Shown: positions 44 to 51,710, counted from the first letter of the stretch. The stretch: DNA of 64,000 nucleotides from a virus (IMGVR_UViG_3300005329_000001); one strand, 5' to 3'. The notes: generated from the sequence alone by a model not told the origin. Numbers and translations: made by a program.

Positions 44-1597
44 ATGAGCGTTCTGCCACTCCAGGACATGATCGCGGGCGCCATCAAGACGGCGAGCGCC
101 AAGATCGCCTCCGAGGCCCACAAGGAGCCCGAGAAGGTCAAGAAGCTCCTGGCGTACGAGAAGAAGGAGCACGGGCACATCCCCTCCCCGCACGAGGAAG
201 AAGTCGAGTGCGAGTCGAAGGAGAAGATGGCCTACGCTGCTCTCATCTCTGACGACCACGTCGAGAAGCTGGCGTCGGCAGTCGACTTCCTCGCGACCCA
301 CCTCGGCGACATTGCCGCTCCGGGCCCGATCGCTCAGGCGCTGGCCAAGACCGCTATGAAGCCGGGTGCAGGCGGTGGTACCGCCGGCGGCAAGTCGGTG
401 CCGAATCCGGCTTCGGCTGCTGGAGCTCTCGAGACCACGCAAGCGATCGGCGGCTCGCAGAAGTACACCAAGAACAAGGCGAAGGGCGAGCAGGCCGAGG
501 ACGAGCACAACAAGGGGCTCGAGCGGAACGAAGGCAATCCGCACGGCGCCAAGACGCACCTCGAGACCAACTACCATGAGGCGCCAGGCAACAACCACGG
601 TTCGGTTCCGCACCACGAGTACCCCGCCAAGGGTCCTCTGGTGGCCGGTCCGTCGGGCGCTCACAACAAGGGCACCAACGCCGCGTCCCTGAAGACCGCC
701 AGCTTCGCTGGCAAGGCGACGGAGTTCGTCGCTCACCATGCGGCACAGCATCCTCGTGCGACCGCGGCGGCTGGTGGAGCTCTGCTCGGCGCCATCCCTG
801 GTGCAGTCGGCGGCGCCGCGGCCGGTGGCGAAGGTCACCGCGCCTCGGGCGCTCTGAAGGGTGGCCTCGCCGGCGCCGCCATGGGCGGTGCAATGGGCGG
901 TGGTGCCATGCACAAGCACCTGGGCAACATGGCGAAGGCCGCTTCAGCGCAGGAAATCGCGCGTCAGCACATCCTCATGAAGCTCGCCGGCGAGGACGTG
1001 ATGAAGGCAAACATCGATGGCGGCGGCACGACATCGCCTCTGGCTGGCAAGGGCCAGCTCAAGACGATGAAGGCCGGCGAGGAGTCGCCCACGCAGGGCG
1101 GCACGGCGGCCAACAGCCAGGACGGGAACTCGGGCACCAAGCTCGTGGACTCGAACAAGGCGGCCATCGACTACACGAAGCGTGATGCCAAGAAGCTGGT
1201 GGTCAATCCTCTCAAGGAGGTCCTCGACCAGCCGGCATTCTCGGAGAAGCACGACAACAAGCTCCAAGAGAACCTGCGGAATACTGGCAAGGCCGGTGTG
1301 AAGATCGCGGGTGCCGCAGTGCAGTCTCAGCTCCAGAAGATCGCGAGCGGTGGCTGCACCTGCAACTCGAAGGGCGAATGCCAGTTCTGCACCATGAAGG
1401 CGAAGTTGGCCAACATGGGCGGGATGGGCGGCACGGGTGGCGGCATGAACCCGATGGCTGGAGCAGGGGAAGGCCACGACGGCTGCACCTGCGGCCACAC
1501 GGGTGAATGCCGAGTGTGCAAGCTCGGCGCAGCTATTAGCGACGCCAAGGGCAAGCACCCGGGTGAGGTCAAGGAAGGCAACGCAGGCTGCTACTGA
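44..1597 (+). CDS. Gly/Ala/Lys-rich low-complexity protein with two C-terminal CTCx4GECx2C clusters; putative virion internal/structural protein
   Basis: 517-aa ORF; SD caggag 8 nt upstream of ATG; first gene of + strand structural operon; no enzymatic motif. Confidence 0.5.
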   Translation: MSVLPLQDMIAGAIKTASAKIASEAHKEPEKVKKLLAYEKKEHGHIPSPHEEEVECESKEKMAYAALISDDHVEKLASAVDFLATHLGDIAAPGPIAQALAKTAMKPGAGGGTAGGKSVPNPASAAGALETTQAIGGSQKYTKNKAKGEQAEDEHNKGLERNEGNPHGAKTHLETNYHEAPGNNHGSVPHHEYPAKGPLVAGPSGAHNKGTNAASLKTASFAGKATEFVAHHAAQHPRATAAAGGALLGAIPGAVGGAAAGGEGHRASGALKGGLAGAAMGGAMGGGAMHKHLGNMAKAASAQEIARQHILMKLAGEDVMKANIDGGGTTSPLAGKGQLKTMKAGEESPTQGGTAANSQDGNSGTKLVDSNKAAIDYTKRDAKKLVVNPLKEVLDQPAFSEKHDNKLQENLRNTGKAGVKIAGAAVQSQLQKIASGGCTCNSKGECQFCTMKAKLANMGGMGGTGGGMNPMAGAGEGHDGCTCGHTGECRVCKLGAAISDAKGKHPGEVKEGNAGCY

Positions 1598-2543: not shown

Positions 2544-3662
2544 ATGAGCGTTCCAGCGCAGGTTCTGAATGAGATGTTCAGCGGTAAGCTGAACTCGTCG
2601 GAGGGCAAGGAGAAGATCGCCGAAGTCGGGTCGGTCTACATCCGTGACCGTCTCCGTGAAGTGTGCTTCGTGGACAAGATCCAGCCGCCGGAGCCGGTGA
2701 CTCGCACCGACTGCCAGCGCTCGGTCAACCACGACACCCTGGTGAAGATCGTCGACATCGAGCCGCAGTCTCGCGCGCTGTCGATCACCTTCCGCGGCCA
2801 GCCGACCGCGCGCTTCATCCGCGCGCCTCGTGCCGAGGTCCCCTTCTTCACGATCTCCTCGGAGAAGTTCGAGAAGACCGAGCAGGAGCTCCTCGCCTAC
2901 GAGATGCCGATCACCAAGATCATCGAGGACAACTCGGTGAAGGACCTCCAGGAGGTCAAGGATCGGACGTGGCTGCTGTTCGTCGAGGCCGGCATCCAGG
3001 CGATGCAGACCGACGGCAACGGCGGCGTGCAGCCGATGAACGTCACCAGTGTGGTGGCGGGCACGACGAAGCAGATCCGCGTCGTGAAGGGCCAGGGCGC
3101 CATCGCGGCGGGTGCGAACGACTTCATCATCCACCCGATCCTCCGCCCGGACCTGGTGAACCTGTTCAAGCTGATCGACGGCAACCGCCTGCGTGCGGAG
3201 CGGCTCCTGATGACGGAGCCCGACTACGACGACATCCTGTCGTGGACGCTGCAGGACTTCGGCGACAAGATGCAGTCGGAGACCGCGGTCGACGGCTACA
3301 AGTACAACACCCTGCTGGGTCGCAAGCTGATCCGCACGGTGAAGACCGACATCCTCCGCGTCGGTAACGTGTACTGCTTCACGGCGCCGGAGTTCCTCGG
3401 CAAGAACTACGTGCTCAACAACACGAAGTTCTACATCGACAAGATCGCGAACATGATCACCTGGCAGTCCTGGATGGACGTCGCCGTGGCGGTCATCAAC
3501 ATCGCGTCGATGGCCAAGCTCGAGCTGTACGGCGGGTCGGTGACCCCGACCTCCACCGACACGGGCTTCGCGGCCCTGCTGCCGGTCGACGAGGACCAGC
3601 TCGGTGCGGTCAACAACAAGGTGGACTCCGGTCTGAAGTTCCCGAACGTCTCGCAGTTCTAA
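2544..3662 (+). CDS. putative major capsid protein
   Basis: 372-aa ORF, SD gggagag; followed directly by a strong intrinsic terminator; size and context typical of HK97-fold MCP. Confidence 0.5.
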   Translation: MSVPAQVLNEMFSGKLNSSEGKEKIAEVGSVYIRDRLREVCFVDKIQPPEPVTRTDCQRSVNHDTLVKIVDIEPQSRALSITFRGQPTARFIRAPRAEVPFFTISSEKFEKTEQELLAYEMPITKIIEDNSVKDLQEVKDRTWLLFVEAGIQAMQTDGNGGVQPMNVTSVVAGTTKQIRVVKGQGAIAAGANDFIIHPILRPDLVNLFKLIDGNRLRAERLLMTEPDYDDILSWTLQDFGDKMQSETAVDGYKYNTLLGRKLIRTVKTDILRVGNVYCFTAPEFLGKNYVLNNTKFYIDKIANMITWQSWMDVAVAVINIASMAKLELYGGSVTPTSTDTGFAALLPVDEDQLGAVNNKVDSGLKFPNVSQF

Positions 3663-3696
3663 TCGAGACGGCGCGGGGCGCCGCGCAATCGTAGTT

Positions 3697-3746
3697 CAGC
3701 GCCCAGAGGAGGGAGGATCCCTTCAGCCTCTGGGCGCTTTTTTCTG
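3697..3746 (+). terminator. rho-independent terminator after capsid gene
   Basis: stem cagcgcccagagg...cctctgggcgc followed by TTTTTTCT. Confidence 0.7.
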
Positions 3747-3783
3747 CCACCTCCAATCGGAGGTAGGAAGCGAGAGGTTGGAG

Positions 3784-4554
3784 ATGTCGTACAAGCTGAA
3801 GAACACGGCACTCGACCACGACAAGCGCTTCCTTCACCGCAAGGCTTCCAAGATGCAAATGGAGCCAGTCATTGGCGGCCGTCGTCTGCGCATTCGCCAG
3901 TCGATGGTCATCAGTGACGAGCTCTTCGAGCACAACAGGGCCAACCTCGAGCTGTGGAACAAGTGGGGTGTGGTCTCTTGGGAGAAGGTCGGTGGGGAAG
4001 GCGGTCGGAGGGTCCCGACGAAGGAAGAAGTCATGGCGGCTGGCTACTCGGAAGAGGCCGCCGAGTCGATCATCGAGCGGGAGAAGCGGCTTGCCGCCGA
4101 AGAGGCTGCTGCTCCCAAGGAGACTCTGTCCGAAGGCGGGCTCCTCTCGCCGCAGCCGGGCGAGTTCGATGTCTGGGTGGGCGAAGTGGGCACCAACCAG
4201 ATCGGCGTGGTGAAGGCTCTTCGTGAGAGCACTCAGCTCTCAATCAAGGAGGCAAGCGACCTTCTCGGCATGGCTCCTGTGATCGTGCTGGGAGGTGTCG
4301 ACGAAGCTGCGGCCACCAAGCTCGCCCAGTCCTTGGTCGATGCCGGAGCCAAGGCCAGCGTGCAGAAGAGCGGGACAGCGCCGCAGCCCTCGCTGATCCC
4401 CGAGACGCTCGTGCCCGAGAACTACACTCCGACGCCGGAATCGAAGCCGTCCGAGGATGCCTCGAGCCTCTTCTCAGAGCCGTCGCAAGCGGAGACGACT
4501 CGCGTCGAGACCAAGCCGCAGGCGCAGCCCAAGAACCCGAAGAGCAAGAAGTAA
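3784..4554 (+). CDS. ribosomal protein bL12 (L7/L12) C-terminal-domain fusion protein: unknown N-terminal domain, bL12 CTD, Pro/Ser-rich tail
   Basis: residues ~128-196 EFDVWVGEVGTNQIGVVKALRESTQLSIKEASDLLGMAPVIVLGGVDEAAATKLAQSLVDAGAKASVQK align along their length with E. coli L7/L12 CTD (EFDV...KEAKDLVESAP...GAEVEVK); ATG 3784 with SD gagaggttggag (track start 3778 is TTG). Confidence 0.8.
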   Translation: MSYKLKNTALDHDKRFLHRKASKMQMEPVIGGRRLRIRQSMVISDELFEHNRANLELWNKWGVVSWEKVGGEGGRRVPTKEEVMAAGYSEEAAESIIEREKRLAAEEAAAPKETLSEGGLLSPQPGEFDVWVGEVGTNQIGVVKALRESTQLSIKEASDLLGMAPVIVLGGVDEAAATKLAQSLVDAGAKASVQKSGTAPQPSLIPETLVPENYTPTPESKPSEDASSLFSEPSQAETTRVETKPQAQPKNPKSKK

Positions 4555-4566
4555 GGGAGGCTGAAC

Positions 4567-4989
4567 ATGGGCATGGTCGTCAGCATCACGAACATCACCG
4601 ACGCGCCGGAGTCCAAGCAGACTCCGACCCGTCTTGCCATCTACACCGCTCTCCTCGACCCCGGCGAGACCCTCACTCTCCCGGCATCGATGGTGGATGC
4701 GCGTCTTCGCAAGCTCGAGAAGGATGGGCTCGTCGTCATCGGCCAGCTCCCTTCGTGGTACGAGGCCTCGAAGATGCGGAAGGTTGGCCGCTCTCGGCTC
4801 ACGCAGGAAGAGCTCGAGCAGAGGCTCACCACCAAGCCGAAGGCGAAGGAAGAGCCCAAGGCCGAGGCAGCGCCCACCGAGGCTCCCAAGGAGGAGTCCG
4901 CCCCCGTCGACGTGTTCTCGATGGAGGTCACCAAGAAGAAGACCTACAAGCTCGACGAGCTGGACGTTCCGAAGACCGACAAGAAGTGA
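4567..4989 (+). CDS. hypothetical protein with Lys/Pro/Glu-rich C-terminus
   Basis: 140-aa ORF, SD gggagg 6 nt upstream. Confidence 0.5.
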   Translation: MGMVVSITNITDAPESKQTPTRLAIYTALLDPGETLTLPASMVDARLRKLEKDGLVVIGQLPSWYEASKMRKVGRSRLTQEELEQRLTTKPKAKEEPKAEAAPTEAPKEESAPVDVFSMEVTKKKTYKLDELDVPKTDKK

Positions 4990-7492: not shown

Positions 7493-8401
7493 GTGAATCT
7501 CCAGATCCTCGAGTTCCGCGCGCAGTCATTCGATCTCGATCACGTCGACCTGTTCTGGAAGACAACAGACTTCTGGACGGGTCAGCCGACAGACGAGAAC
7601 ATCCTCGCGTACACCTTTCAGGTGCTGCGGTCGGAATCGCCTGCGGGTCCATGGGATCCCCTGACGAAGCCTTTTCAAGACCAGTACTACTTCCGAGATG
7701 TCTCTCCAGCCATCCTTCACAAATGGCGAGAGCTCTACTACCTCCTACGCGTCACTGATCAGCGCACTGGGGAAGTGAAGGACTTCGGCCCGACAGGGCA
7801 GATTGCCGAACCTGATCTCATTGCGCTCGAGATCATGCGGCAAGAGGATGTCCTGTTTCGCGAGTACGCCGGCAGGAAGTGCTGGTACTTCCCGATCAAG
7901 ACGTTCGGTCCCAAGTGCATCTGCTACGACCGAGTGAAAGGCAAGAGGACCAAGAGCAACTGCGTCACGTGCTACGACACAGGCTACCTGGGCGGCTACC
8001 TCTCACCGATCGAGTGCTACGTGCAGATCGATCCCAGCTCGAACAACAACCAGGAGACTCCTCTCGGTAAGCAGCAAGCCAACAACACGACTGCCCGGCT
8101 CATCTCCTTCCCACCTATGATGCCCGACTCCATACTGGTCGAGGCTGAGAACAGGCGATGGAAGATAGTGACAGTGGCAATGACAGCACGGCTTCGAGCA
8201 GTCGTGCATCAGGAGCTGACGATCCACGAAGTGCCTCGCGGCGACGTGGAATACAAGCTGCCCGTCAACTTCGCCGATCTGACGAATGTCCAGGCGTCGG
8301 CCGAGAGAAACTTTACCAACCCAACCCACGTGGACGATGACTCCCAGCGACTCGACTTCTTGGCTGTTTACGGGTACAACCCCCGAGGAACCGTCCGCTG
8401 A
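7493..8401 (+). CDS. putative structural protein with Cys4 zinc-ribbon (CICYD..CVTCYD)
   Basis: 302-aa ORF, SD aggaggatccGTG/ATG. Confidence 0.5.
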   Translation: MNLQILEFRAQSFDLDHVDLFWKTTDFWTGQPTDENILAYTFQVLRSESPAGPWDPLTKPFQDQYYFRDVSPAILHKWRELYYLLRVTDQRTGEVKDFGPTGQIAEPDLIALEIMRQEDVLFREYAGRKCWYFPIKTFGPKCICYDRVKGKRTKSNCVTCYDTGYLGGYLSPIECYVQIDPSSNNNQETPLGKQQANNTTARLISFPPMMPDSILVEAENRRWKIVTVAMTARLRAVVHQELTIHEVPRGDVEYKLPVNFADLTNVQASAERNFTNPTHVDDDSQRLDFLAVYGYNPRGTVR

Positions 8402-8864
8402 GAAGCACTGTCGCTACTGCGATCGGACACTTCTTCGCTCGGCATTCAGAGAAATAAGGCCCAAGACGGGCCGAGGCGCAGGTAAGGTCTATCGCTCTTC
8501 CTGCTGCCTGGAGTGCGAACCGAAGCGAACAAAGGCCGAACGGGAAGAGAAGAAGCGCAAAGATCCTGCTGGTCTCTATCGCCGTGAACTTGATCGCAAG
8601 TTGCGTTACATGTACAACATCTCGCTCGCCGATTACGAGCAGTTGTTCGCTGAGCAGCGAGGCCTTTGCATCGGATGTCTAGCCCCTCCAGAGGAAGGAG
8701 TCCGATTCGACGTCGACCATGATCATGCGACGGGAGAAGTCAGAGGACTCCTCTGCAACCGTTGCAACAACGTCTTGAGCAAGGCCAAAGACAATCCAGA
8801 GATACTTCGCCGTCTGGCTTCCTACCTCGATGAGCATCAGGCTAAGCTACGAGTGGTCGCATGA
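8337..8864 (+). CDS. recombination endonuclease VII family (Holliday-junction resolvase) with extra N-terminal zinc ribbon
   Basis: motif DVDHDHATGEVRGLLCNRCN matches Endo VII DHDHxTGxVRGLLCxxCN; upstream CxxC pair; alternative start ATG 8286; overlaps end of 7493..8401. Confidence 0.75.
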   Translation: MTPSDSTSWLFTGTTPEEPSAEKHCRYCDRTLLRSAFREIRPKTGRGAGKVYRSSCCLECEPKRTKAEREEKKRKDPAGLYRRELDRKLRYMYNISLADYEQLFAEQRGLCIGCLAPPEEGVRFDVDHDHATGEVRGLLCNRCNNVLSKAKDNPEILRRLASYLDEHQAKLRVVA

Positions 8865-19286: not shown

Positions 19287-21476
19287 CTATCCTCTCGACC
19301 GCAAATACTTCTCAAAATTCTGAATCACCAGATTCTGAAGTACGCGGTCGACAGAATTCTCGTCATCTCGAGAAGAGGCATTACGCCAGAAGCGAGGAGG
19401 TCCGAACATCTTCCTGCATTCCTGATCGTCGATGCCGCCGTCGATAACCAAGGTGTACACGTTCACACCTCTCTGCCGCGCCCATTGGATCTCCTTCATT
19501 ACATACTGCTGAAGGACCCAGGTGGGGAGGCCTTGTCCACTGCTCTTCGCGCTGCACGGCGATCCATCTGTCAGCAGGAAGAGGTATTTCGCCATTCCAG
19601 GGGACATCTGAGTCAGCAGGTATCGAGAAGCGACGCGGATCGCCGAGTGCATTGGGGTCAGGCCACCACACTCGACTGGGATTGAGTAATTCTTGCCGGC
19701 CGGCTTTGCAGAGCCCAAGTAGCCCTCGCATTCGCGGTCCCAGCGGTAGATCCAGACCTGACCACTTCTGTCGTATTTTCCACCCTCTCCGCCTCTGAAT
19801 CCCCAGCGCCGGCCATCAACGAAGGGGAAGCGAAGAGAGCGTCGGAGCATCTCTCCCGCATGCATTACTTGGTAAAGCCGCTCACCGTCCATCGAGCCGG
19901 ACATATCGCAAAGGGTGAGATATCCGAACCCTTGGTTGTTCATATCCTGCTCGAAGATCGAACTGTCATTCGGCTCGATAGCGAACTGAATCGCTGAGTC
20001 GACGTCGATGCTGACCCCGCTCTCGTTGCGCTGCATCTTCTGCCTACCGAGAGTCCTGAAGAAGACGCTGCGCATTCTCTCGACCGCTTCGAGCTCTTTC
20101 TCCTTCAGTGCGACCTTCGAGCGGATGTTCTCCGGCTTCACGTCGATGAAGAGAATCTTCGCCTTGGCGTCGGCCATGAGCTGGCTATCGGGAGAGACTT
20201 GCGTCATCCCATCGCGGAAGCTGTCGATTGCCTGTTGCATGTCCCCATCGATTTGACCGATGTCCTCATCGGTCGGGATAGCGCCGTCGACGTCCTGGAA
20301 GACCTGGGCGATTGCCGACCGCACGGCGTCGGGCACCGTGGTCATGTCGACTTTGTCGGGAAGGGGATGGTTCTCTTGCTCGTCGAACTGAGTCGAGTGG
20401 CGGATCAGAGAGCTGAGAGCATTGCTCACCTGTGACGCGTCGGGGACGGGTACATCGCCTGTCCCCTGGTCGTGTGGCTCGGAAGCACTGGCTGATTGCG
20501 ACGCTCCATCGGGAACGCTGCCTCCAGCTTGTCCCTGATCACTTGCTCCTCCGGCATCTCCTGGGGTGCCAGACGAAGCTCCGGCTCCGGCACTGCCCGC
20601 TTGGGCCTGCTGCGCATCTTGTCCTCCTTGTTGTGGCTGTTGTGGTGCCTGCGAAGGAGGGGGAGGATGCATCTCTTCGAGCAGTTTGTCTAGACACTGA
20701 TTCAGGGCAAGGCGGGCGACGACGAGGGATCGCTGGTATCCCTTGTACCGGATGTGGTGCATGCCCCATTCGATGCAAGGCCGAAGAGGCTCAAAAGGTC
20801 CATCTGATACGGTAGGAGTTCCAAGCGCAACGGCGAAGAGAAAGGCGATGAAGTTCTCGCTGTTGGCTTCTGCTCCTCGACTATTAGAAATACGCGTCCA
20901 TCGTCTCCAAATTCGATCCGCAGAGCCGGGGTAGAGAAGCTCCCAAAGAGAATTGCAGCGAATATCATCGAAGGCGTTGAGGACGTAGAAAAGGAATCTT
21001 TCGAGTTGCGCAGGATCAACATGTGGCGCCTTCTGCTTGAGTTCGTGGACCCAAGGCGCGAGGAAGAGCTTCGCAGTCTTGGGGTCCGTCTTGAAGAGAA
21101 TGTGCTGCCATTCGTGCTCGAACCCAAGGTAACCCTGCTCAGCTCCGCAAGTCATGCACGAGAGTGTATCGCCGGGCAGTACGTCGAGCTTGCCCTCCCA
21201 CTCGTGTCCGCAGGCGAGTCGGTAGGTATGCCGTCCTCGTGATTCGCCGAGCAGCTCCACCACCTCTTGGTCGATCGGATCGGCGAACTTCACCCAGATG
21301 GTGGAGGTGCAGTCCGTCTGATTCTGATGACCCTCCTGCACCCTGATGTCCTTCTTGTAGGCCCGCTTGAATGTATCGTTGGTGCGATAGATCGGGTTCT
21401 TGTCGATCGGAGCCTCATAGTGTCGATTTGGTGGAGGAGACTTGCCACCAGAAACATAGTAAGAGCTGTTCGCCAC
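19287..21476 (-). CDS. VWA-domain protein (CobT-like), partner of AAA+ ATPase
   Basis: C-terminal MIDAS LTLCDMSGSMDG ... FLLTDGSPC; central Gln/Gly/Ser-rich linker; 729 aa. Confidence 0.7.
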   Translation of the reverse strand: MANSSYYVSGGKSPPPNRHYEAPIDKNPIYRTNDTFKRAYKKDIRVQEGHQNQTDCTSTIWVKFADPIDQEVVELLGESRGRHTYRLACGHEWEGKLDVLPGDTLSCMTCGAEQGYLGFEHEWQHILFKTDPKTAKLFLAPWVHELKQKAPHVDPAQLERFLFYVLNAFDDIRCNSLWELLYPGSADRIWRRWTRISNSRGAEANSENFIAFLFAVALGTPTVSDGPFEPLRPCIEWGMHHIRYKGYQRSLVVARLALNQCLDKLLEEMHPPPPSQAPQQPQQGGQDAQQAQAGSAGAGASSGTPGDAGGASDQGQAGGSVPDGASQSASASEPHDQGTGDVPVPDASQVSNALSSLIRHSTQFDEQENHPLPDKVDMTTVPDAVRSAIAQVFQDVDGAIPTDEDIGQIDGDMQQAIDSFRDGMTQVSPDSQLMADAKAKILFIDVKPENIRSKVALKEKELEAVERMRSVFFRTLGRQKMQRNESGVSIDVDSAIQFAIEPNDSSIFEQDMNNQGFGYLTLCDMSGSMDGERLYQVMHAGEMLRRSLRFPFVDGRRWGFRGGEGGKYDRSGQVWIYRWDRECEGYLGSAKPAGKNYSIPVECGGLTPMHSAIRVASRYLLTQMSPGMAKYLFLLTDGSPCSAKSSGQGLPTWVLQQYVMKEIQWARQRGVNVYTLVIDGGIDDQECRKMFGPPRFWRNASSRDDENSVDRVLQNLVIQNFEKYLRSRG

Positions 21477-21485
21477 GGGATACTC

Positions 21486-21911
21486 CTACTTGACGACTGG
21501 ACCATAAACATGAAACGCCACCGCTCCCATTTCCAGTAGGAAGCTGCCGAGATATGGGAGAGCGTAGGAGAACTTCTTTCCAACAACGTTCGTGTCCTCC
21601 TCTTCCGGCACCGTGCCTCCCGTCGGGATGACGTGATAGGTGTATGGCACGAGATTTCTATCGTTGGCGTCCACTTCTGCCCAGATCGAGACGTGCTCCT
21701 TCGGCACGGCGTAATTGCCCATGATCTTCGTCTGTGGATGAATGCCGCGGACGACGACGGTCTTGATGCGCCCGCTAATTCTGCGCACCACCGCGCCTCT
21801 CGGCATCTTGACGATGGCGGTGTAGGCCTTGAGCTCTCCAGTGAGCTCGCGGCGCTGCATCTCTTCTTCAGAACCGCCGAGCGGGAAATCGAACTCCTCG
21901 ATCGTTTTCAT
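21486..21911 (-). CDS. hypothetical protein
   Basis: internal ATG (MKTIEEF) of ORF 21486..21986; between AAA+ and VWA genes. Confidence 0.45.
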   Translation of the reverse strand: MKTIEEFDFPLGGSEEEMQRRELTGELKAYTAIVKMPRGAVVRRISGRIKTVVVRGIHPQTKIMGNYAVPKEHVSIWAEVDANDRNLVPYTYHVIPTGGTVPEEEDTNVVGKKFSYALPYLGSFLLEMGAVAFHVYGPVVK

Positions 21912-22141
21912 TCTTCCTCTCCCTTTCTGAAGTCCGAATACGTGCCGTCGCAGTAGCGCCAGCCGCTGATCTTGCATCGAACGCACTTCACGAAGGCAGC
22001 GGCATCATCAGGGCCAGCACCGCCGCGGAGTATCTTCTCTCTGAAGCTGTGCCAGCCGTTGTCGCAGAACCACAGACCAATGCGCTGCCATCTCGTGAGA
22101 CGCGTCTGAGCAGAGGCGGCGCTCTCACGATAGGGGTTCAC
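21908..22141 (-). CDS. small Cys-containing hypothetical protein
   Basis: 77-aa ORF with 4-nt overlaps to both neighbours. Confidence 0.4.
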   Translation of the reverse strand: MNPYRESAASAQTRLTRWQRIGLWFCDNGWHSFREKILRGGAGPDDAAAFVKCVRCKISGWRYCDGTYSDFRKGEEE

Positions 22142-23118
22142 TTGCCGTCCCAGAACTCAGTGACCGTGGCGCCCTTGAAGATGGAGCCCACCCGGGCCAG
22201 GGCGGTCTTCCTCTCCTCGCCCTCGTATTTGCACACCAGCATTTGAAGCGCAGGCTTCAGTCCGTTGGTGCGAACCGTCTGCAGCGTACGGACGATGTCT
22301 CGAGTGGAGAGGGCGTAGCCGATCGCCTTCTGCCTCGACTCCTTGGCGAATCGAAGCATCAGATCGGTGATGTCTTCCATCGCCGCATCCATCTGACCGA
22401 GATTGGCGCGGATGATCTGCTTCTCGTATTCGGTGGGCGGGTAGTCCGTCTCGATCTCGCTCATGCGAGACTTCAGATCCTCGTTGAGATCGTAGGTGCC
22501 TCCGTACACCGACGGATTCATCGTCCCGGTGAACCACACCGTGCAGCCCTGGTTGAGTCGGAAGGTCTGCCCAAGAGAGTCCACTTCCACCGCGCGCTCT
22601 TGCAGGACGCCGTTGAGCATCTTCTGCGACTGCGGAGTGAGGGCATTGAACTCCTCGAAGAGCAGGATGCACCTGCCGACTTCATTGGCGATGCGGATTG
22701 CCTTCGGCAGACCAGAGAGCACGAACTTCGTCTCTCGCCCCACCAGGACATATCGCCCGATGAGCTGCAAGTCCTTGGTGTTCTCTGAGCACTCCACCAC
22801 GACGAGTGGGATGCGCCAGGCGAAGGCTGCGGCTCGAATCGAGAGAGACTTCCCGTTGCCCTTCGGTCCCTTCAGCAAGAGATTGCCGTGGTCCTGAAAA
22901 GCGAGAGCTTGATACTGCGGCATCAACCCGAAGACGTCGACGAAGGGGACGGTCTGGTTGACCAAGAGCTCTGATGCAGGTGTGCAGATGATGGGGATGT
23001 GTTTCTCGTCGGCATGAGCCGACCGTTGGATCTCTCCTCGTGAGTAAAGGGATTCGATCAGCGCAGTCTTCTGATCAGCCGGCAGTCCATCGAGCCATTG
23101 GTTCCACGGATTCGACAT
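22138..23118 (-). CDS. MoxR/CobS-like AAA+ ATPase
   Basis: Walker A LLLKGPKGNGKS, Walker B CILLFEEFN, sensor TGTMNP; 326 aa. Confidence 0.8.
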   Translation of the reverse strand: MSNPWNQWLDGLPADQKTALIESLYSRGEIQRSAHADEKHIPIICTPASELLVNQTVPFVDVFGLMPQYQALAFQDHGNLLLKGPKGNGKSLSIRAAAFAWRIPLVVVECSENTKDLQLIGRYVLVGRETKFVLSGLPKAIRIANEVGRCILLFEEFNALTPQSQKMLNGVLQERAVEVDSLGQTFRLNQGCTVWFTGTMNPSVYGGTYDLNEDLKSRMSEIETDYPPTEYEKQIIRANLGQMDAAMEDITDLMLRFAKESRQKAIGYALSTRDIVRTLQTVRTNGLKPALQMLVCKYEGEERKTALARVGSIFKGATVTEFWDGK

Positions 23119-23244
23119 TCATCGCTCCTTGATAAGAAACGGATCTGGGATCACCGCGCTTATCCCGGAGGAGTTGTAGCGTTTTCCGTCGGTGCTGTCA
23201 GCTAAGAAAATGCCGGAGAAGATCCGGCGAGGAGTACTGGGGAA

Positions 23245-24105
23245 CTACTGGAGAGAGACGGTCCAGGGCATTGAAGCCGACACGTCGAAGGAGAACGAGG
23301 TCTGCGTCAGCGAGTAGGAGGAGAGACCCGTCGCCGCAACACTCATGCACCCCATCTGGTTCGGTCCCCCGGAATAGGACTGGTAGTTGATGAACGTCTG
23401 GGGCCAGTTCTGCCAGTAGAGCTTGGTGCCTTGGAAGGCCTGCCAGAAGAGCTGGTTCGAGAAGGTGAAGATGCCTTCATCCGACGAGACGTACGGAGTG
23501 CCAGTGCAGTTGTTCGTGGGGTAGTAGAACTTCGTCGGCTTCTGCGTGATGATGTAGTTGTACGGATAGTTGGCCACCGGGTTCGAGGTGTTGTTGGTCA
23601 TAGCGTAGAGGCCGACGCCGCCGTTGCCGAGAGGCGCGAGCATGCCGATGTACTGCGTCGTGCCGGCGAGCACACCAGTGACCTGCAGAGCTCTGCCGTC
23701 CTTGCCGGCCGCTCCAGCAACGCCCTGCGGTCCTTGAGCTCCCTGCGCACCGGTGTCGCCCTTCGGCCCCTGGATGCCCTGCGGGCCCTGAGCGCCCGTG
23801 TCGCCCTTGGGTCCCTGCATGCCCATCGGACCCTGGACACCTTGCACGCCTTGCGGACCCTGCACGCCCTGATCGCCCTTCGGGCCTTGGAGACCCTGGG
23901 CGCCGGTCATTCCAACATCACCCTTGTCGCCCTTCGCACCAGCAAGCCCTTGCGGGCCAGCGGGGCCAGGGACGCCCGAGCACACGCCGCCGTCAGCGGA
24001 CATGCACATCGGGATTTCGGCGGGCTTCTGCGCCCCGGCCGCGGAACCCGAATCGCAGCCAGCACTACCGATTGCCAGGAGAGACACCGCGAGGATGTAG
24101 CGCAT
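23245..24105 (-). CDS. collagen-like triple-helix repeat lipoprotein
   Basis: signal peptide MRYILAVSLLAIGSAGC (lipobox), ~35 GXY repeats (GPAGPQGLAGAKGDKGDVG...), C-terminal Tyr/Asn/Thr-rich globular domain. Confidence 0.7.
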   Translation of the reverse strand: MRYILAVSLLAIGSAGCDSGSAAGAQKPAEIPMCMSADGGVCSGVPGPAGPQGLAGAKGDKGDVGMTGAQGLQGPKGDQGVQGPQGVQGVQGPMGMQGPKGDTGAQGPQGIQGPKGDTGAQGAQGPQGVAGAAGKDGRALQVTGVLAGTTQYIGMLAPLGNGGVGLYAMTNNTSNPVANYPYNYIITQKPTKFYYPTNNCTGTPYVSSDEGIFTFSNQLFWQAFQGTKLYWQNWPQTFINYQSYSGGPNQMGCMSVAATGLSSYSLTQTSFSFDVSASMPWTVSLQ

Positions 24106-50259: not shown

Positions 50260-50811
50260 TTACTTCTTCCTGCGCTTCTCGTCGAACGCCGGCGGCAGAG
50301 CCAGAGCCTTCTGCACATCATTCAGGCGCTTCAGGTTCGGAGAGACCGTCGTTTCGAACCAGGCCTTGAGTGGCTTGTTCTCGGCGGTGTTGGGAATCTC
50401 AGATGTGTTGACCAGAGCGGCTGTCTGCTGCAAGCCGGCGGCAGCGCGATCGAAGGTCTTCTTCCGCTCGATGAGTCGACCCTTGAGAACGTCGAGGCTG
50501 CCGGTGGTTGCCCGCACTCCGATGCCGGAGAGGTTCTCAAGCTCGCGCCCGTACGATTCGATGAGGTACTTGCGAGCTCGTGAGGCTGTCTTGCGGATGA
50601 GCTGGGTGCTCTGGCTGTTCTCCCTCGGAGTCGAAGCTAGGCCCATCACAACGCGGGTGACGAAGCCCCAGGAGTAGTACTTCTGTGGCTGGTGCTTCGC
50701 GGCCCAGTCGAGGAAATGGGCGACGCTCTTGTAGTGGGCCGTCCGCTCGTCGTCGGGGAGAGGAGAGTAGCCCTTGATGTTGTCGTGCGACTTCGCAGCA
50801 GCCATGTTCAT
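50260..50811 (-). CDS. hypothetical protein
   Basis: 183-aa ORF, SD ggaggaccta. Confidence 0.5.
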   Translation of the reverse strand: MNMAAAKSHDNIKGYSPLPDDERTAHYKSVAHFLDWAAKHQPQKYYSWGFVTRVVMGLASTPRENSQSTQLIRKTASRARKYLIESYGRELENLSGIGVRATTGSLDVLKGRLIERKKTFDRAAAGLQQTAALVNTSEIPNTAENKPLKAWFETTVSPNLKRLNDVQKALALPPAFDEKRRKK

Positions 50812-51710
50812 AGGTCCTCCAGAATTTGATAGGCCTCCACCACGCTTTCGTACATCTCTCTCGTGTCGTCGGTGCCTGACGAATCAGGATGATACTTTGC
50901 CGCGAGAGTTTTGTACTGCTTCTTCGCCTTCTTCTTGAAGTCTTCTGAGATCCTACCTCCGAGCGGTGGATCAAGATGAAGAACGTGACAGGCCTGAATG
51001 ATCTTCCCGCGATTCATGCCACGTCGCTGGCTCTCCGATGTCCGTCGCATACGGTCGAGCTTGTGCTGGTAGTGCTCGAGAATCACCCGGAGCTCGCCTT
51101 CGAACTCCCGGTACGTCTTCTCGATCACGCCGGGATCCACACCCTCGAGCCGAGCATGGAAGTAGCCGGAGATCATGCCCCTAAGGTTTGCCCAGAAGAG
51201 CTTCGGATCGTCGTCTTTGCCCGTCTCCTGAACCTCTTCCACCACGGGCGCCGGTGGAGGGGGTACGACAATCCGAGGAGGGGCACTCGGGTTGCGCTTG
51301 TGAATCACCGAGCCGTCAGGCAGAAGAGCAGCCGGGAAGGAGTCGTATTCTTCCAACGTCTTGGTGAGCGCAGCGGCTACCTCTACACCCAGCATCGAGG
51401 CCTTCTGCTTCGCCTCCCTCATCAGCTTGGTAGCCGTCCGCAGCGGCAATTTTTCATCACGGATGCGCAGCCACAGCACATCAGCGACGTCGCCGTAGCC
51501 GAGCAAGGTCGAGCGTCCTTCGATCGCGTAGGGAGTCTCCTCGAGCTCCTTGGACAGCCACTCTCGCTTGGAGAGCAGAGATCCATCGGTGCGATTGATG
51601 GTTGGAAGAGCGGCCTGCCAAATCTGACGCTCGAGAACGGCCAGCTCCTTCTCGCTCTTGCCGTCCTTGTGGTTCTTGTACAGCGCAATCAGCTTCTGGT
51701 AGTCCTCCAT
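50808..51710 (-). CDS. J-domain (DnaJ-like) co-chaperone protein
   Basis: C-terminal KKQYKTLAAKYHPDSSGTDDTREMYESVVEAYQILEDL with HPD tripeptide; SD ggagaggttgagca. Confidence 0.7.
   Translation of the reverse strand: MEDYQKLIALYKNHKDGKSEKELAVLERQIWQAALPTINRTDGSLLSKREWLSKELEETPYAIEGRSTLLGYGDVADVLWLRIRDEKLPLRTATKLMREAKQKASMLGVEVAAALTKTLEEYDSFPAALLPDGSVIHKRNPSAPPRIVVPPPPAPVVEEVQETGKDDDPKLFWANLRGMISGYFHARLEGVDPGVIEKTYREFEGELRVILEHYQHKLDRMRRTSESQRRGMNRGKIIQACHVLHLDPPLGGRISEDFKKKAKKQYKTLAAKYHPDSSGTDDTREMYESVVEAYQILEDL

What the first reader, a model, noticed from the sequence alone, without database searches (positions are those of the whole stretch)
3784..4554. Phage protein carrying a bona fide ribosomal bL12 (L7/L12) C-terminal domain fused to unrelated N- and C-terminal regions
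Residues ~128-196 align along their length with the bL12 C-terminal domain. That domain recruits the translational GTPases IF2, EF-Tu, EF-G and RF3 to the ribosome. The N-terminal 110 aa do not resemble the bL12 dimerisation/L10-binding domain, and the C-terminus is a Pro/Ser-rich tail, so the protein probably cannot assemble onto the ribosomal stalk. It could instead act as a soluble decoy or adaptor for host translation factors. The gene sits right after the capsid gene terminator with its own SD, inside the late structural operon, so it is made in bulk late and could even be virion-associated.
Basis: partly seen in the sequence, partly recalled or inferred. Interest (0 to 1): 0.7.

Follow-up and report, generated by a model that had tools for sequence, protein, structure and literature searches.

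The report
Phage protein carrying ribosomal bL12 domain
A gene next to the capsid gene of an uncultivated soil phage really does carry the factor-recruiting end of ribosomal protein bL12, but as an optional insert in a conserved phage protein, and phage proteins with this domain were already described in 2019.

Summary
Observation confirmed. ORF 3784-4554 (256 aa) matches Pfam Ribosomal_L12 CTD (aa 128-193, E=2e-12, above the curated cut-off). An AlphaFold model superposes on E. coli L7/L12 CTD (TM 0.94, rmsd 0.9 A). The EF-G/EF-Tu-binding helix 4/5 residues are kept, and no bL12 N-terminal domain is present.

New here: the protein belongs to an unannotated phage family of about 140 clusters. 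Each has a basic ~70-aa N-terminal alpha/beta domain, an acidic Pro/Glu/Ala-rich linker and a basic C-terminal tail. In the six family loci examined the gene lies directly after the HK97-fold capsid gene. The bL12 CTD sits in the variable linker of one sub-clade only. Near-identical relatives lack it, and it evolves under purifying selection (dN/dS 0.1-0.57).

A stalk mimic acting off the ribosome is plausible but untested. A conserved terminator upstream argues against "made in bulk".

Phage bL12-CTD domains embedded in larger, unrelated proteins were reported by Mizuno et al. 2019. This is therefore a new member of a known kind, in a new context (the late structural module). Function remains unknown. 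Interest is moderate to low.

The parts
2544..3662 (+). Major capsid protein gene (HK97 fold), the invariable upstream neighbour
   Evidence: phrog_2522 major head protein E=6e-9. NCBIfam NF042927 HK97-fold major capsid protein E=1.9e-10. 27.7% identity to the annotated MCP of Salmonella phage Arash. A 371-373 aa orthologue precedes the family gene in the related loci where the upstream gene is complete.
3698..3744 (+). Intrinsic terminator/attenuator after the capsid gene (12+5 bp hairpin followed by U6)
   Evidence: RNA fold of 3660-3790: -63.7 kcal/mol, z=-4.1, 0 of 200 shuffles as stable. The hairpin is kept with compensatory changes in L005 and replaced by a different GC hairpin plus T-tract in the distant locus L010. 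The consensus scanner missed it because its loop limit is exceeded.
3772..3777 (+). Shine-Dalgarno-like GAGAGG, 6 nt before the ATG
   Evidence: Read directly from the sequence. Conserved in close relatives.
3784..4554 (+). CDS of the 256-aa bL12-CTD-carrying protein
   Evidence: ORF list and sequence. An identical protein is found on at least 22 metagenomic contigs (longest listed 210 kb). 13 further homologues. dN/dS below 1 in every segment.
3784..3999 (+). Conserved N-terminal alpha/beta domain (aa 1-72), net charge +6, with an Arg-rich loop GGRRLRIR. It is the hallmark of the carrier family.
4015..4119 (+). Helical pair (aa 78-112, VPTKEEVMAAGYSEEAAESIIEREKRLAAEEAAA), a second optional module of the carrier family
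   Evidence: AF2 helices 80-85 and 90-109, pLDDT 82-89. The same module is present in the L12-less relative P0009. A related 'GPTxEEWVxAGY...' motif occurs in 20 family members by a pattern search. Only a weak DUF3173 hit, E=0.049.
4162..4368 (+). bL12 (L7/L12) C-terminal domain, aa 127-195
   Evidence: PF00542 E=2e-12. 1ctf TM 0.94, rmsd 0.9 A. Gapless alignment to E. coli residues 53-120. Helix 4 is the most conserved element among 9 phage copies, with I66, V68, K70, L72, R73 and E74 invariant. dN/dS 0.10 against the closest relative.
4369..4551 (+). Disordered Pro/Ser/Glu-rich tail ending in the family's conserved basic C-terminal motif (aa 241-256, VETKPQAQPKNPKSKK; nt 4504-4551)
   Evidence: pLDDT below 50 for aa 205-251. 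The C-terminal motif PPAETT..ETKPQPK(S/N)P(F)KGKK is conserved in close relatives. 94% of 142 family members have net charge of +3 or more in the last 12 residues, often KKGPGKKKLF or KRGPGRPKK.

Best explanation
The gene encodes a modular 'beads-on-a-string' phage protein of a previously unannotated family. In the six family loci examined the gene lies immediately downstream of the major capsid gene.

The family core has three parts: a basic ~70-aa N-terminal alpha/beta domain, an acidic Pro/Glu/Ala-rich disordered linker, and a short basic C-terminal tail. In one sub-clade the linker has captured the C-terminal domain of ribosomal protein bL12. This looks like a single acquisition from a cellular rplL, followed by several losses or swaps.

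Shown:
- The domain is a true bL12 CTD with the helix 4/5 surface conserved and under purifying selection.
- It lacks the bL12 N-terminal domain that anchors bL12 to uL10.
- It is dispensable, because near-identical carriers lack it.

Inferred:
- The CTD works as a free stalk mimic. It binds whatever normally docks on the stalk CTD: the translational GTPases EF-Tu, EF-G, IF2 and RF3, uL11, or stalk-dependent effectors.
- It does this away from the ribosome. The carrier's N-domain and basic tail probably tether it to the capsid or procapsid, or to nucleic acid.
- It is an accessory fitness module, not part of the core morphogenetic role of the carrier.
For: Domain identity.

Factor-binding face:
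- PMC5887453 lists V66-V68, K70, L80 and E82 of the L12 CTD as the EF-G G' contacts.
- In the window protein these are I, G, V, K, I and E.
- K70, R73, A83 and D85 are invariant and E82 is 8/9 across nine phage copies that are otherwise far more divergent. Helix 4 is the best-conserved element.

Purifying selection: dN/dS of the CTD is 0.10 against P0002 and 0.31-0.57 in more distant, near-saturated pairs.

Carrier family and optional insert:
- Alignment of 14 homologues, of which 5 lack the CTD.
- 134 further clusters carry the N-domain, almost always at their N-terminus, and none of them has a full CTD.
- P0005 (with CTD) and P0012 (without) differ at about 2 of 74 N-domain residues. L12-plus and L12-minus members interleave in the N-domain tree.

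Other points:
- Conserved position directly after the MCP gene in both close and distant members.
- Domains are flexibly linked: pTM 0.34, with disordered segments at 113-124 and 205-251.
- Charge pattern is basic-acidic-basic across the family.
Against: - No binding, expression or virion data exist. No cultured phage carries the carrier family, so function rests on domain conservation and synteny only.
- L12 CTD-factor contacts are, from general knowledge, weak and transient. A monomeric soluble copy may therefore be a poor decoy.
- K65 and K84 of E. coli bL12 are not conserved in the phage copies.
- Repeated loss shows the domain is not essential.
- dN/dS up to 0.57 is much more relaxed than expected for a ribosomal protein.
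- Conservation of helix 4 could partly reflect fold stability.
Confidence: 0.45

Rival explanations
1. Ribosome-incorporated viral bL12. The protein joins host ribosomes and adds or replaces a stalk CTD, altering translation in favour of the phage. This is the proposal made for viral bL12 proteins in general.
Against: - No bL12 N-terminal (uL10-binding, dimerisation) domain. TIGR00855 matches only positions 45-124 and scores 41.9 against a cut-off of 84.4.
- uL30 similarity is absent at sequence-profile level, hhalign probability 0.4%.
- In the same paper, tagged viral bL12 could not be used to affinity-purify ribosomes.
- Over 130 family clusters have the same N-domain and tail without any bL12 CTD and sit next to the capsid gene. 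This points to a morphogenesis-linked carrier.
Confidence: 0.1
2. Passenger or spacer domain. The bL12 CTD is merely a small, stable, soluble fold exapted as a structural bead, for example a surface-exposed decoration on a capsid-bound fibre. It has no translation-related activity.
For: The insert lies in a hypervariable linker where other relatives have coiled-coil or low-complexity sequence instead. It has been lost several times, even between near-identical carriers. Most family members have no folded middle domain at all. From general knowledge, phage decoration proteins such as T5 pb10 or T4 Hoc commonly display accessory domains.
Against: The residues that stay invariant across divergent phage copies include the solvent-exposed factor-binding residues K70 and R73, plus E82 and D85, rather than only core positions. 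dN/dS is as low as 0.10. A distant family member (P0076) carries only a helix 4/5-like motif, which hints that this surface is what is selected. That match is weak, E about 5e-4.
Confidence: 0.2
3. Anti-defence decoy. The free stalk CTD titrates host immune effectors that use bL12 or EF-Tu as a docking or trigger site, such as stalk-captured CARF-RelE nucleases like Cami1, or Lit-type EF-Tu proteases triggered by capsid protein.
For: - The modelled CTD matches the bL12 chain in the Cami1-70S complex 8phj, and Cami1 is cited as an L12-mediated interaction (PMC12179292).
- The patchy gain/loss pattern is typical of counter-defence modules.
- In N4-like phages the bL12 CTD is embedded in rIIB-like proteins. 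From general knowledge, rII proteins counter abortive infection.
- The gene neighbours the capsid gene. From general knowledge, capsid protein is a common trigger of abortive infection involving EF-Tu, as in T4 Gol/Lit.
Against: Entirely circumstantial. The host and its defence repertoire are unknown. Late expression behind a terminator is poor timing for a decoy unless the protein is packaged and injected. No known anti-defence family matched.
Confidence: 0.1
4. ClpS-like N-degron adaptor rather than a bL12-derived domain (the two share a fold).
For: ClpS structures appear in the fold search (E about 1e-2, target TM 0.6-0.7).
Against: bL12 hits are four orders of magnitude better, with 41% identity and rmsd 0.9 A. 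The Pfam scan at E<=1 reported Ribosomal_L12 and a weak DUF3173 only, so no ClpS family matched.
Confidence: 0.02

Closest known systems
Virus-encoded bL12-domain proteins (Mizuno et al. 2019, Nat Commun 10:752, PMC6375957). Examples: Salmonella phages FSL SP-058/076 (418 aa), Erwinia phage Ea9-2 (724 aa), Ralstonia phage RSB3, roseophages DSS3P2/DFL12phi1.
   Same: A phage-encoded PF00542 domain about 30-40% identical to cellular bL12, with the uL11 and EF-G/EF-Tu contact residues conserved. It is often embedded in a larger polypeptide whose flanks are unrelated to bL12. Homologues of the flanks exist without the domain, which implies modular acquisition. Function is unknown.
   Different: The carrier protein is different and has no detectable relative in 50,697 cultured phage records. 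The context is also different. Here the gene is the first after the major capsid gene in the late structural module. The cultured examples found here lie in rIIB-like proteins of N4-like phages, in an early region of Ralstonia phage RSJ5 (by position in the record, an inference), or in the replication module of a crAss-like phage.
Cellular ribosomal protein bL12 (L7/L12, rplL; TIGR00855)
   Same: The C-terminal alpha/beta domain: 41% identity to E. coli, rmsd 0.9 A, with the helix 4/5 residues that recruit translational GTPases. It is preceded by a flexible linker, as the bL12 CTD is by its hinge.
   Different: No N-terminal dimerisation/uL10-binding domain. It fails the full-length equivalog cut-off. 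It is not in an rplJ-rplL context. It is fused to a phage-specific N-domain and a basic tail. K65 and K84 are not conserved.
Streptomyces cluster BE1 phages (e.g. Riptide) annotated 'ribosomal protein L7/L12 C-terminus domain' genes (PMC12509530)
   Same: Phage genes consisting of, or containing, only the CTD of L7/L12. The authors suggest translational modulation, without experiments.
   Different: Different phages (actinophage siphoviruses rich in tRNA genes) and a different locus, genes 258-259 rather than next to the capsid gene. No shared carrier domain was seen.
Small proteins encoded directly after the capsid gene with a globular end, a flexible linker and a binding end. Examples: lambda gpFI (packaging chaperone), B. 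subtilis skin-prophage YqbF (PDB 2hjq), T5 pb10-type decoration proteins. These are recalled from memory and serve as leads only.

Membership tests
Ribosomal protein bL12 (L7/L12), full-length family (TIGR00855) | C-terminal alpha/beta domain matching PF00542 | tested here: met
   E=2e-12, 47.7 bits against cut-off 25.9, profile positions 1-66 of 67. TM 0.94, rmsd 0.9 A to 1ctf.
Ribosomal protein bL12 (L7/L12), full-length family (TIGR00855) | N-terminal dimerisation and uL10-binding domain | tested here: not met
   TIGR00855 aligns only profile positions 45-124 and scores 41.9 bits against a cut-off of 84.4. The Pfam scan at E<=1 returned only PF00542 and a weak DUF3173, so no L12 N-terminal family matched. 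aa 1-72 belong to a separate phage family.
Ribosomal protein bL12 (L7/L12), full-length family (TIGR00855) | Conserved helix 4/5 surface that binds EF-G, EF-Tu, IF2 and RF3 (V66-V68, K70, L80, E82; also R73) | tested here: met
   I140, G141, V142, K144, R147, I154 and E156 in the window protein. K70 and R73 are invariant and E82 is 8/9 in nine phage copies. The residue list comes from PMC5887453. K65 and K84 are not kept.
Ribosomal protein bL12 (L7/L12), full-length family (TIGR00855) | Stable component of the 50S stalk | not testable with these tools
   Needs ribosome fractionation or cryo-EM.
Ribosomal protein bL12 (L7/L12), full-length family (TIGR00855) | rplJ-rplL operon context | tested here: not met
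   The neighbours are an HK97-fold capsid gene and phage ORFs of unknown function.
Virus-encoded bL12-domain proteins (Mizuno et al. 2019) | PF00542 domain encoded in a phage genome, about 30-40% identical to cellular bL12 | tested here: met
   Phage structural module. 41% identity to E. coli CTD.
Virus-encoded bL12-domain proteins (Mizuno et al. 2019) | Domain embedded in a larger polypeptide, and homologues of the flanks exist without it | tested here: met
   CTD at aa 127-195 of 256. P0009 and P0011-P0014, plus more than 125 further clusters, share the flanks but lack the CTD.
Virus-encoded bL12-domain proteins (Mizuno et al. 2019) | Purifying selection on the viral copy | tested here: met
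   Nei-Gojobori dN/dS of the CTD is 0.10-0.57 in five pairwise comparisons. The distant pairs are near saturation.
ClpS N-degron adaptor (same fold) | ClpS sequence profile and closest structural match | tested here: not met
   No ClpS family among the Pfam hits at E<=1. Foldseek E about 1e-2 for ClpS against 1e-6 for bL12.
Ribosomal protein uL30 (for the N-terminal domain) | uL30 fold | tested here: inconclusive
Ribosomal protein uL30 (for the N-terminal domain) | Sequence-profile relatedness to uL30 | tested here: not met
No Ribosomal_L30 hit in the Pfam scan of 142 members and none in PDB sequences.
Capsid decoration or capsid-accessory protein | Gene adjacent to the major capsid gene in the late module | tested here: met
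   Immediately downstream of the MCP gene in the family loci where the upstream gene is complete, including a distant member.
Capsid decoration or capsid-accessory protein | Physical presence on or in the virion, binding to the capsid lattice | not testable with these tools
   No cultured relative.

The most novel reading that the evidence does not exclude
The carrier attaches many copies of a free ribosomal-stalk head to the procapsid or capsid, or packages them with the DNA through its basic ends. The phage thereby carries a multivalent stalk mimic. This mimic captures translational GTPases, or it decoys host immune effectors that dock on bL12 or EF-Tu (Cami1-type stalk-captured nucleases, Lit-type capsid/EF-Tu sensors). 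That would make it a structural-module-encoded, possibly virion-delivered, counter-defence or translation-hijack device.
Probability: 0.1. Interest if true: 0.75.

Novelty: new member of a known kind. Interest (0 to 1): 0.35.

Why it matters
Phage-borne copies of the bL12 C-terminal domain have been known since 2019, but nobody knows what they do.

This locus offers a clean natural experiment. Within one syntenic phage lineage the same carrier protein exists with and without the domain. The domain keeps its factor-binding helices under purifying selection while lacking any means of joining the stalk.

That makes a direct test possible of whether a free stalk head binds translational GTPases or stalk-dependent immune nucleases. 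It also adds a late, capsid-adjacent context to the early, rIIB-like and replication-module contexts already seen.

The finding additionally defines an unannotated phage protein family of about 140 clusters that was next to the capsid gene wherever its context was examined. If the domain turns out to be a passive spacer, the finding is ordinary.

Tried and rejected
1. Homologue search with the CTD alone returned nothing. This looks like a limit of the word index for a 78-aa query and is not evidence of absence. The closest cellular donor lineage was therefore not determined.
3. I tested whether the next ORF (4567-4989, 140 aa) is a paralogue of the N-domain, as it looked by eye. hhalign probability is 0.4%, so this is rejected.
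4. I looked for the carrier family in cultured phages: tblastn with the full protein and two divergent N-domains against 50,697 records, and BFVD fold search (best E=0.02, uncharacterised). No annotated relative was found.
5. IMG/VR scan found only one related contig.
6. The nearest cultured capsid relative, Salmonella phage Arash, has a 'major tail protein' after its MCP and no family member. It is uninformative.
7. ClpS reading of the fold: rejected.
8. I considered whether aa 86-125 are a remnant of the bL12 N-domain or hinge, because phmmer alignments extend there. This is rejected because the same helical module occurs in the L12-less relative P0009 and, in variant form, in distant members.
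9. The consensus terminator scanner missed the post-MCP terminator. RNA folding and comparative alignment recovered it.

Full report
**1. The observation**

The ORF lies exactly where stated: ATG at 3784, TAA at 4552-4554, 256 aa. All homologues begin MSYK, so the ATG and not the TTG at 3778 is the start.

The central segment is a bona fide bL12 C-terminal domain:
- Pfam PF00542 matches aa 128-193 over profile positions 1-66 of 67. E is 2e-12 and the score is 47.7 bits against a gathering cut-off of 25.9.
- phmmer against all PDB sequences finds only bL12 chains, best 2.3e-10.
- The segment aligns without gaps to E. coli L7/L12 residues 53-120, with 28/68 identities.
- An AlphaFold2 model built on 14 homologues gives pLDDT about 90 for aa 128-195.
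- That part of the model superposes on the 1.7 A crystal structure 1ctf with target TM-score 0.94 and rmsd 0.9 A over 68 residues.
- ClpS, which shares the fold, matches far worse (E about 1e-2), and no ClpS family was among the Pfam hits.

The full-length L12 model TIGR00855 aligns only through its positions 45-124. It scores 41.9 bits against a cut-off of 84.4. The dimerisation/uL10-binding N-domain is therefore absent.

**2. The factor-binding face**

The residues reported to contact the G' domain of EF-G are V66-V68, K70, L80 and E82 (PMC5887453). In the window protein they are I, G, V, K, I and E. R73, K81, D85 and P91 are also kept, whereas K65 and K84 are not.

Nine phage copies of the domain were compared; they have diverged considerably from one another. 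The invariant positions are G62, I66, V68, K70, L72, R73, E74, A83, D85, P91, V94, A103, L110, A113 and G114. E82 is kept in 8 of 9. Helix 4 is the best-conserved element.

Nei-Gojobori dN/dS for the CTD is 0.10 against the closest relative and 0.31-0.57 in more distant, nearly saturated pairs. The domain is therefore maintained by selection, though less stringently than one would expect for a ribosomal protein.

**3. What the rest of the protein is**

The flanks are not random. A search of 5.8 billion proteins found 14 relatives. Their alignment shows three features:
- An almost invariant N-terminal ~70 residues (MSYKLKNTALDHxKRFLHRxASKMQMEPVIGGRRLRIRxSMVISDELFEHNKANLELWxxWGVVxWEK).
- A variable middle.
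- A conserved C-terminal tail (PPAETT..ETKPQPKSPFKGKK).

Nine of the 14 relatives carry the bL12 CTD in the middle. Five (P0009, P0011-P0014, 143-177 aa) have coiled-coil or low-complexity sequence there instead.

A profile of the N-domain was searched against 1.8 billion representative proteins. It recovered 134 genuine clusters, and almost all have the domain at residues 1-~70 of an 83-260-aa protein. Across 142 members the pattern is consistent:
- The N-domain is basic, median net charge +3.
- The middle is acidic, median -9, and rich in Pro, Glu and Ala.
- The last 12 residues are basic in 94% of members. Typical endings are KKGPGKKKLF or KRGPGRPKK, which look AT-hook-like (a reading by eye, not tested).

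A full bL12 CTD occurs only in the window's sub-clade, by a local HMM and by Pfam on all 142 members. One distant member, P0076, has only a helix 4/5-like motif, and that match is weak.

Within the sub-clade, L12-plus and L12-minus proteins interleave in the N-domain tree. P0005 (plus) and P0012 (minus) differ at about 2 of 74 N-domain residues. The phage CTDs are much closer to each other than to E. coli. The simplest history is one capture followed by several losses or module swaps.

Synonymous divergence differs seven-fold between modules of the same gene pair: dS is 0.09 in the N-domain and 0.68 in the CTD. That fits mosaic recombination.

**4. The N-domain and second module**

No sequence-level relationship exists:
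- hhalign against uL30 gives probability 0.4%.
- There are no Pfam, PHROG, NCBIfam or PDB sequence hits.
- BFVD returns nothing significant or annotated.
- No relative is found in 50,697 cultured phage records.

I treat the uL30 resemblance as convergence on a common small fold.

Residues 78-112 form a confident helical pair. This module also occurs in the L12-less P0009 and, as 'GPTxEEWVxAGY...', in 20 family members by a pattern search. It is a carrier module, not a bL12 N-domain remnant.

**5. Context**

The upstream gene (2544-3662) is an HK97-fold major capsid protein. It is most similar to the MCP of Salmonella phage Arash, at 27.7% identity.

In the loci examined the family gene follows the capsid gene directly. 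These include L12-plus loci (L001-L004, L007, L012), L12-minus loci (L005, L006) and a distant member (L010). Gene order is conserved on both sides.

Further upstream, outside the window, an 801-aa protein combines a prohead-protease region with a domain shared with DarB-like and minor-head proteins. Most other genes have no database match. The identical protein occurs on at least 22 metagenomic contigs, the longest listed at 210 kb. This is an uncultivated, probably large, phage.

Between the capsid gene and this gene lies a strong hairpin (3698-3738) followed by a U-tract. The fold of 3660-3790 is -63.7 kcal/mol with z=-4.1. The hairpin is conserved with compensatory changes in relatives. 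A GAGAGG Shine-Dalgarno sequence sits 6 nt before the ATG. This is the usual arrangement for making much capsid protein and less of what follows, so 'made in bulk' is not supported.

**6. How it most likely works**

Shown:
- A true bL12 CTD with its factor-binding helices is under purifying selection.
- It has no stalk anchor.
- It is flexibly tethered (pTM 0.34, disordered linkers) inside a conserved capsid-adjacent carrier.
- It is dispensable.

Inferred:
- The CTD acts as a stalk mimic away from the ribosome.
- It engages ligands of the stalk head: EF-Tu, EF-G, IF2, RF3, uL11, or stalk-dependent effectors.
- The carrier's basic N-domain and tail hold it on the capsid or procapsid, or on nucleic acid.

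Confidence is 0.45. The rivals are:
- Ribosome incorporation (0.1). It is supported only by the single-peptide mass-spectrometry result for a different viral protein in Mizuno et al. and by the fold-level uL30 likeness.
- A passive spacer or decoration domain (0.2).
- A counter-defence decoy (0.1). The hints are the Cami1-bL12 structure among the fold hits, the embedding of bL12 CTDs in rIIB-like proteins of N4-like phages, and the patchy distribution.
- ClpS-like adaptor (0.02).

**7. Comparison with what is known**

Mizuno et al. 2019 (PMC6375957) already reported the main features:
- bL12 domains in seven cultured phages and many uncultivated ones.
- Homologues of the flanks lack the domain.
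- Genomic contexts differ widely.
- The uL11, EF-G and EF-Tu contact residues are conserved.

Streptomyces BE1 phages are also annotated with L7/L12-CTD genes, and roseophages with bL12.

The present case meets every descriptive criterion of that class. It fails the criteria for a full bL12 ribosomal protein. What is new is the carrier family and the late, capsid-adjacent position. In cultured phages I found the domain in three other contexts:
- rIIB-like proteins of N4-like phages.
- A hypothetical protein about 5.5 kb into Ralstonia phage RSJ5.
- The replication module of a crAss-like phage.

**8. Verdict**

This is a new member of a known kind, its function is still unknown, and interest is moderate to low (0.35).

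Noticed in passing
window 8286-8864 (+): An ORF with a strong endonuclease VII match (phrog_2633, E=1e-29, aa 34-185) sits between the 302-aa and 104-aa structural-module genes and overlaps the end of the former. The public gene calls on the matching contig (L001) list only a 52-aa minus-strand ORF there. Relatives L005, L006 and L007 have no ~460-bp gap at this place, so it looks like a mobile nuclease insertion.
   Followed up: partly
window 44-1597 (+): A 517-aa protein upstream of the putative scaffold gene. It has long Gly/Ala-rich glycine-zipper-like stretches (weak NF053611 hit) and two CxC-x6-CxxC motifs near the C-terminus (CTCNSKGECQFC, CTCGHTGECRVC). It has no family match and is conserved in size (505-517 aa) in relatives.
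   Followed up: no
L001 2261-4666 (upstream of the window in the same phage): An 801-aa protein combines a head-maturation-protease region (aa 73-219, phrog_18299) with a domain shared with DarB-like antirestriction and minor head proteins, and with Pfam InPase. It may be a protease-linked packaged cargo protein.
   Followed up: partly
window 3784-4554 versus L011 (P0002): Synonymous divergence differs about seven-fold between modules of the same gene pair: dS is 0.09 in the N-domain and 0.68 in the bL12 CTD. This suggests recombination breakpoints inside the gene, or strong constraint on synonymous sites at the 5' end.
   Followed up: partly
protein P0076 (distant family member), aa 145-179: It carries only a two-helix motif resembling bL12 helices 4-5 (KLIEAVRSVRDRTDCSMSDAKDLVDS), without the beta-sheet. 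The match is weak: phmmer E about 5e-4 within the set, and a Pfam hit at E<=0.05. From memory, the motif also resembles the EF-Tu-binding N-terminal motif of EF-Ts.
   Followed up: partly
window 4015-4119, and 20 family members: A recurrent optional module 'GPTxEEWVxAGYxPExYPPxGYAExPSxGL' appears in the window protein as VPTKEEVMAAGYSEEAAESIIERE. It is a helix-turn-helix-like pair of unknown function, with only a weak DUF3173 hit.
   Followed up: partly
window 19287-24105 (- strand): A cluster of three genes: an AAA_5 (MoxR-like) ATPase at 22138-23118, a 729-aa protein with a C-terminal VWA domain at 19287-21476, and a collagen-triple-helix-repeat protein at 23245-24105. A DnaJ-domain protein lies at 50808-51710.
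   Followed up: no
phage records KX098390 (Erwinia phage Rexella), Klebsiella phage KP8 and relatives: In N4-like phages the weak bL12-CTD matches fall inside genes annotated rIIB-like or RIIB lysis inhibitor. In crAss-like cr126_1 the domain is in a 308-aa hypothetical protein next to the primase gene.
   Followed up: partly
window 4567-4989 (+): The next gene (140 aa) also has a short N-terminal region followed by a Lys/Glu/Pro/Ala-rich low-complexity stretch, and it varies in length (130-142 aa) between relatives. By eye it resembles the carrier architecture, but no relationship is detectable (hhalign probability 0.4%).
   Followed up: yes
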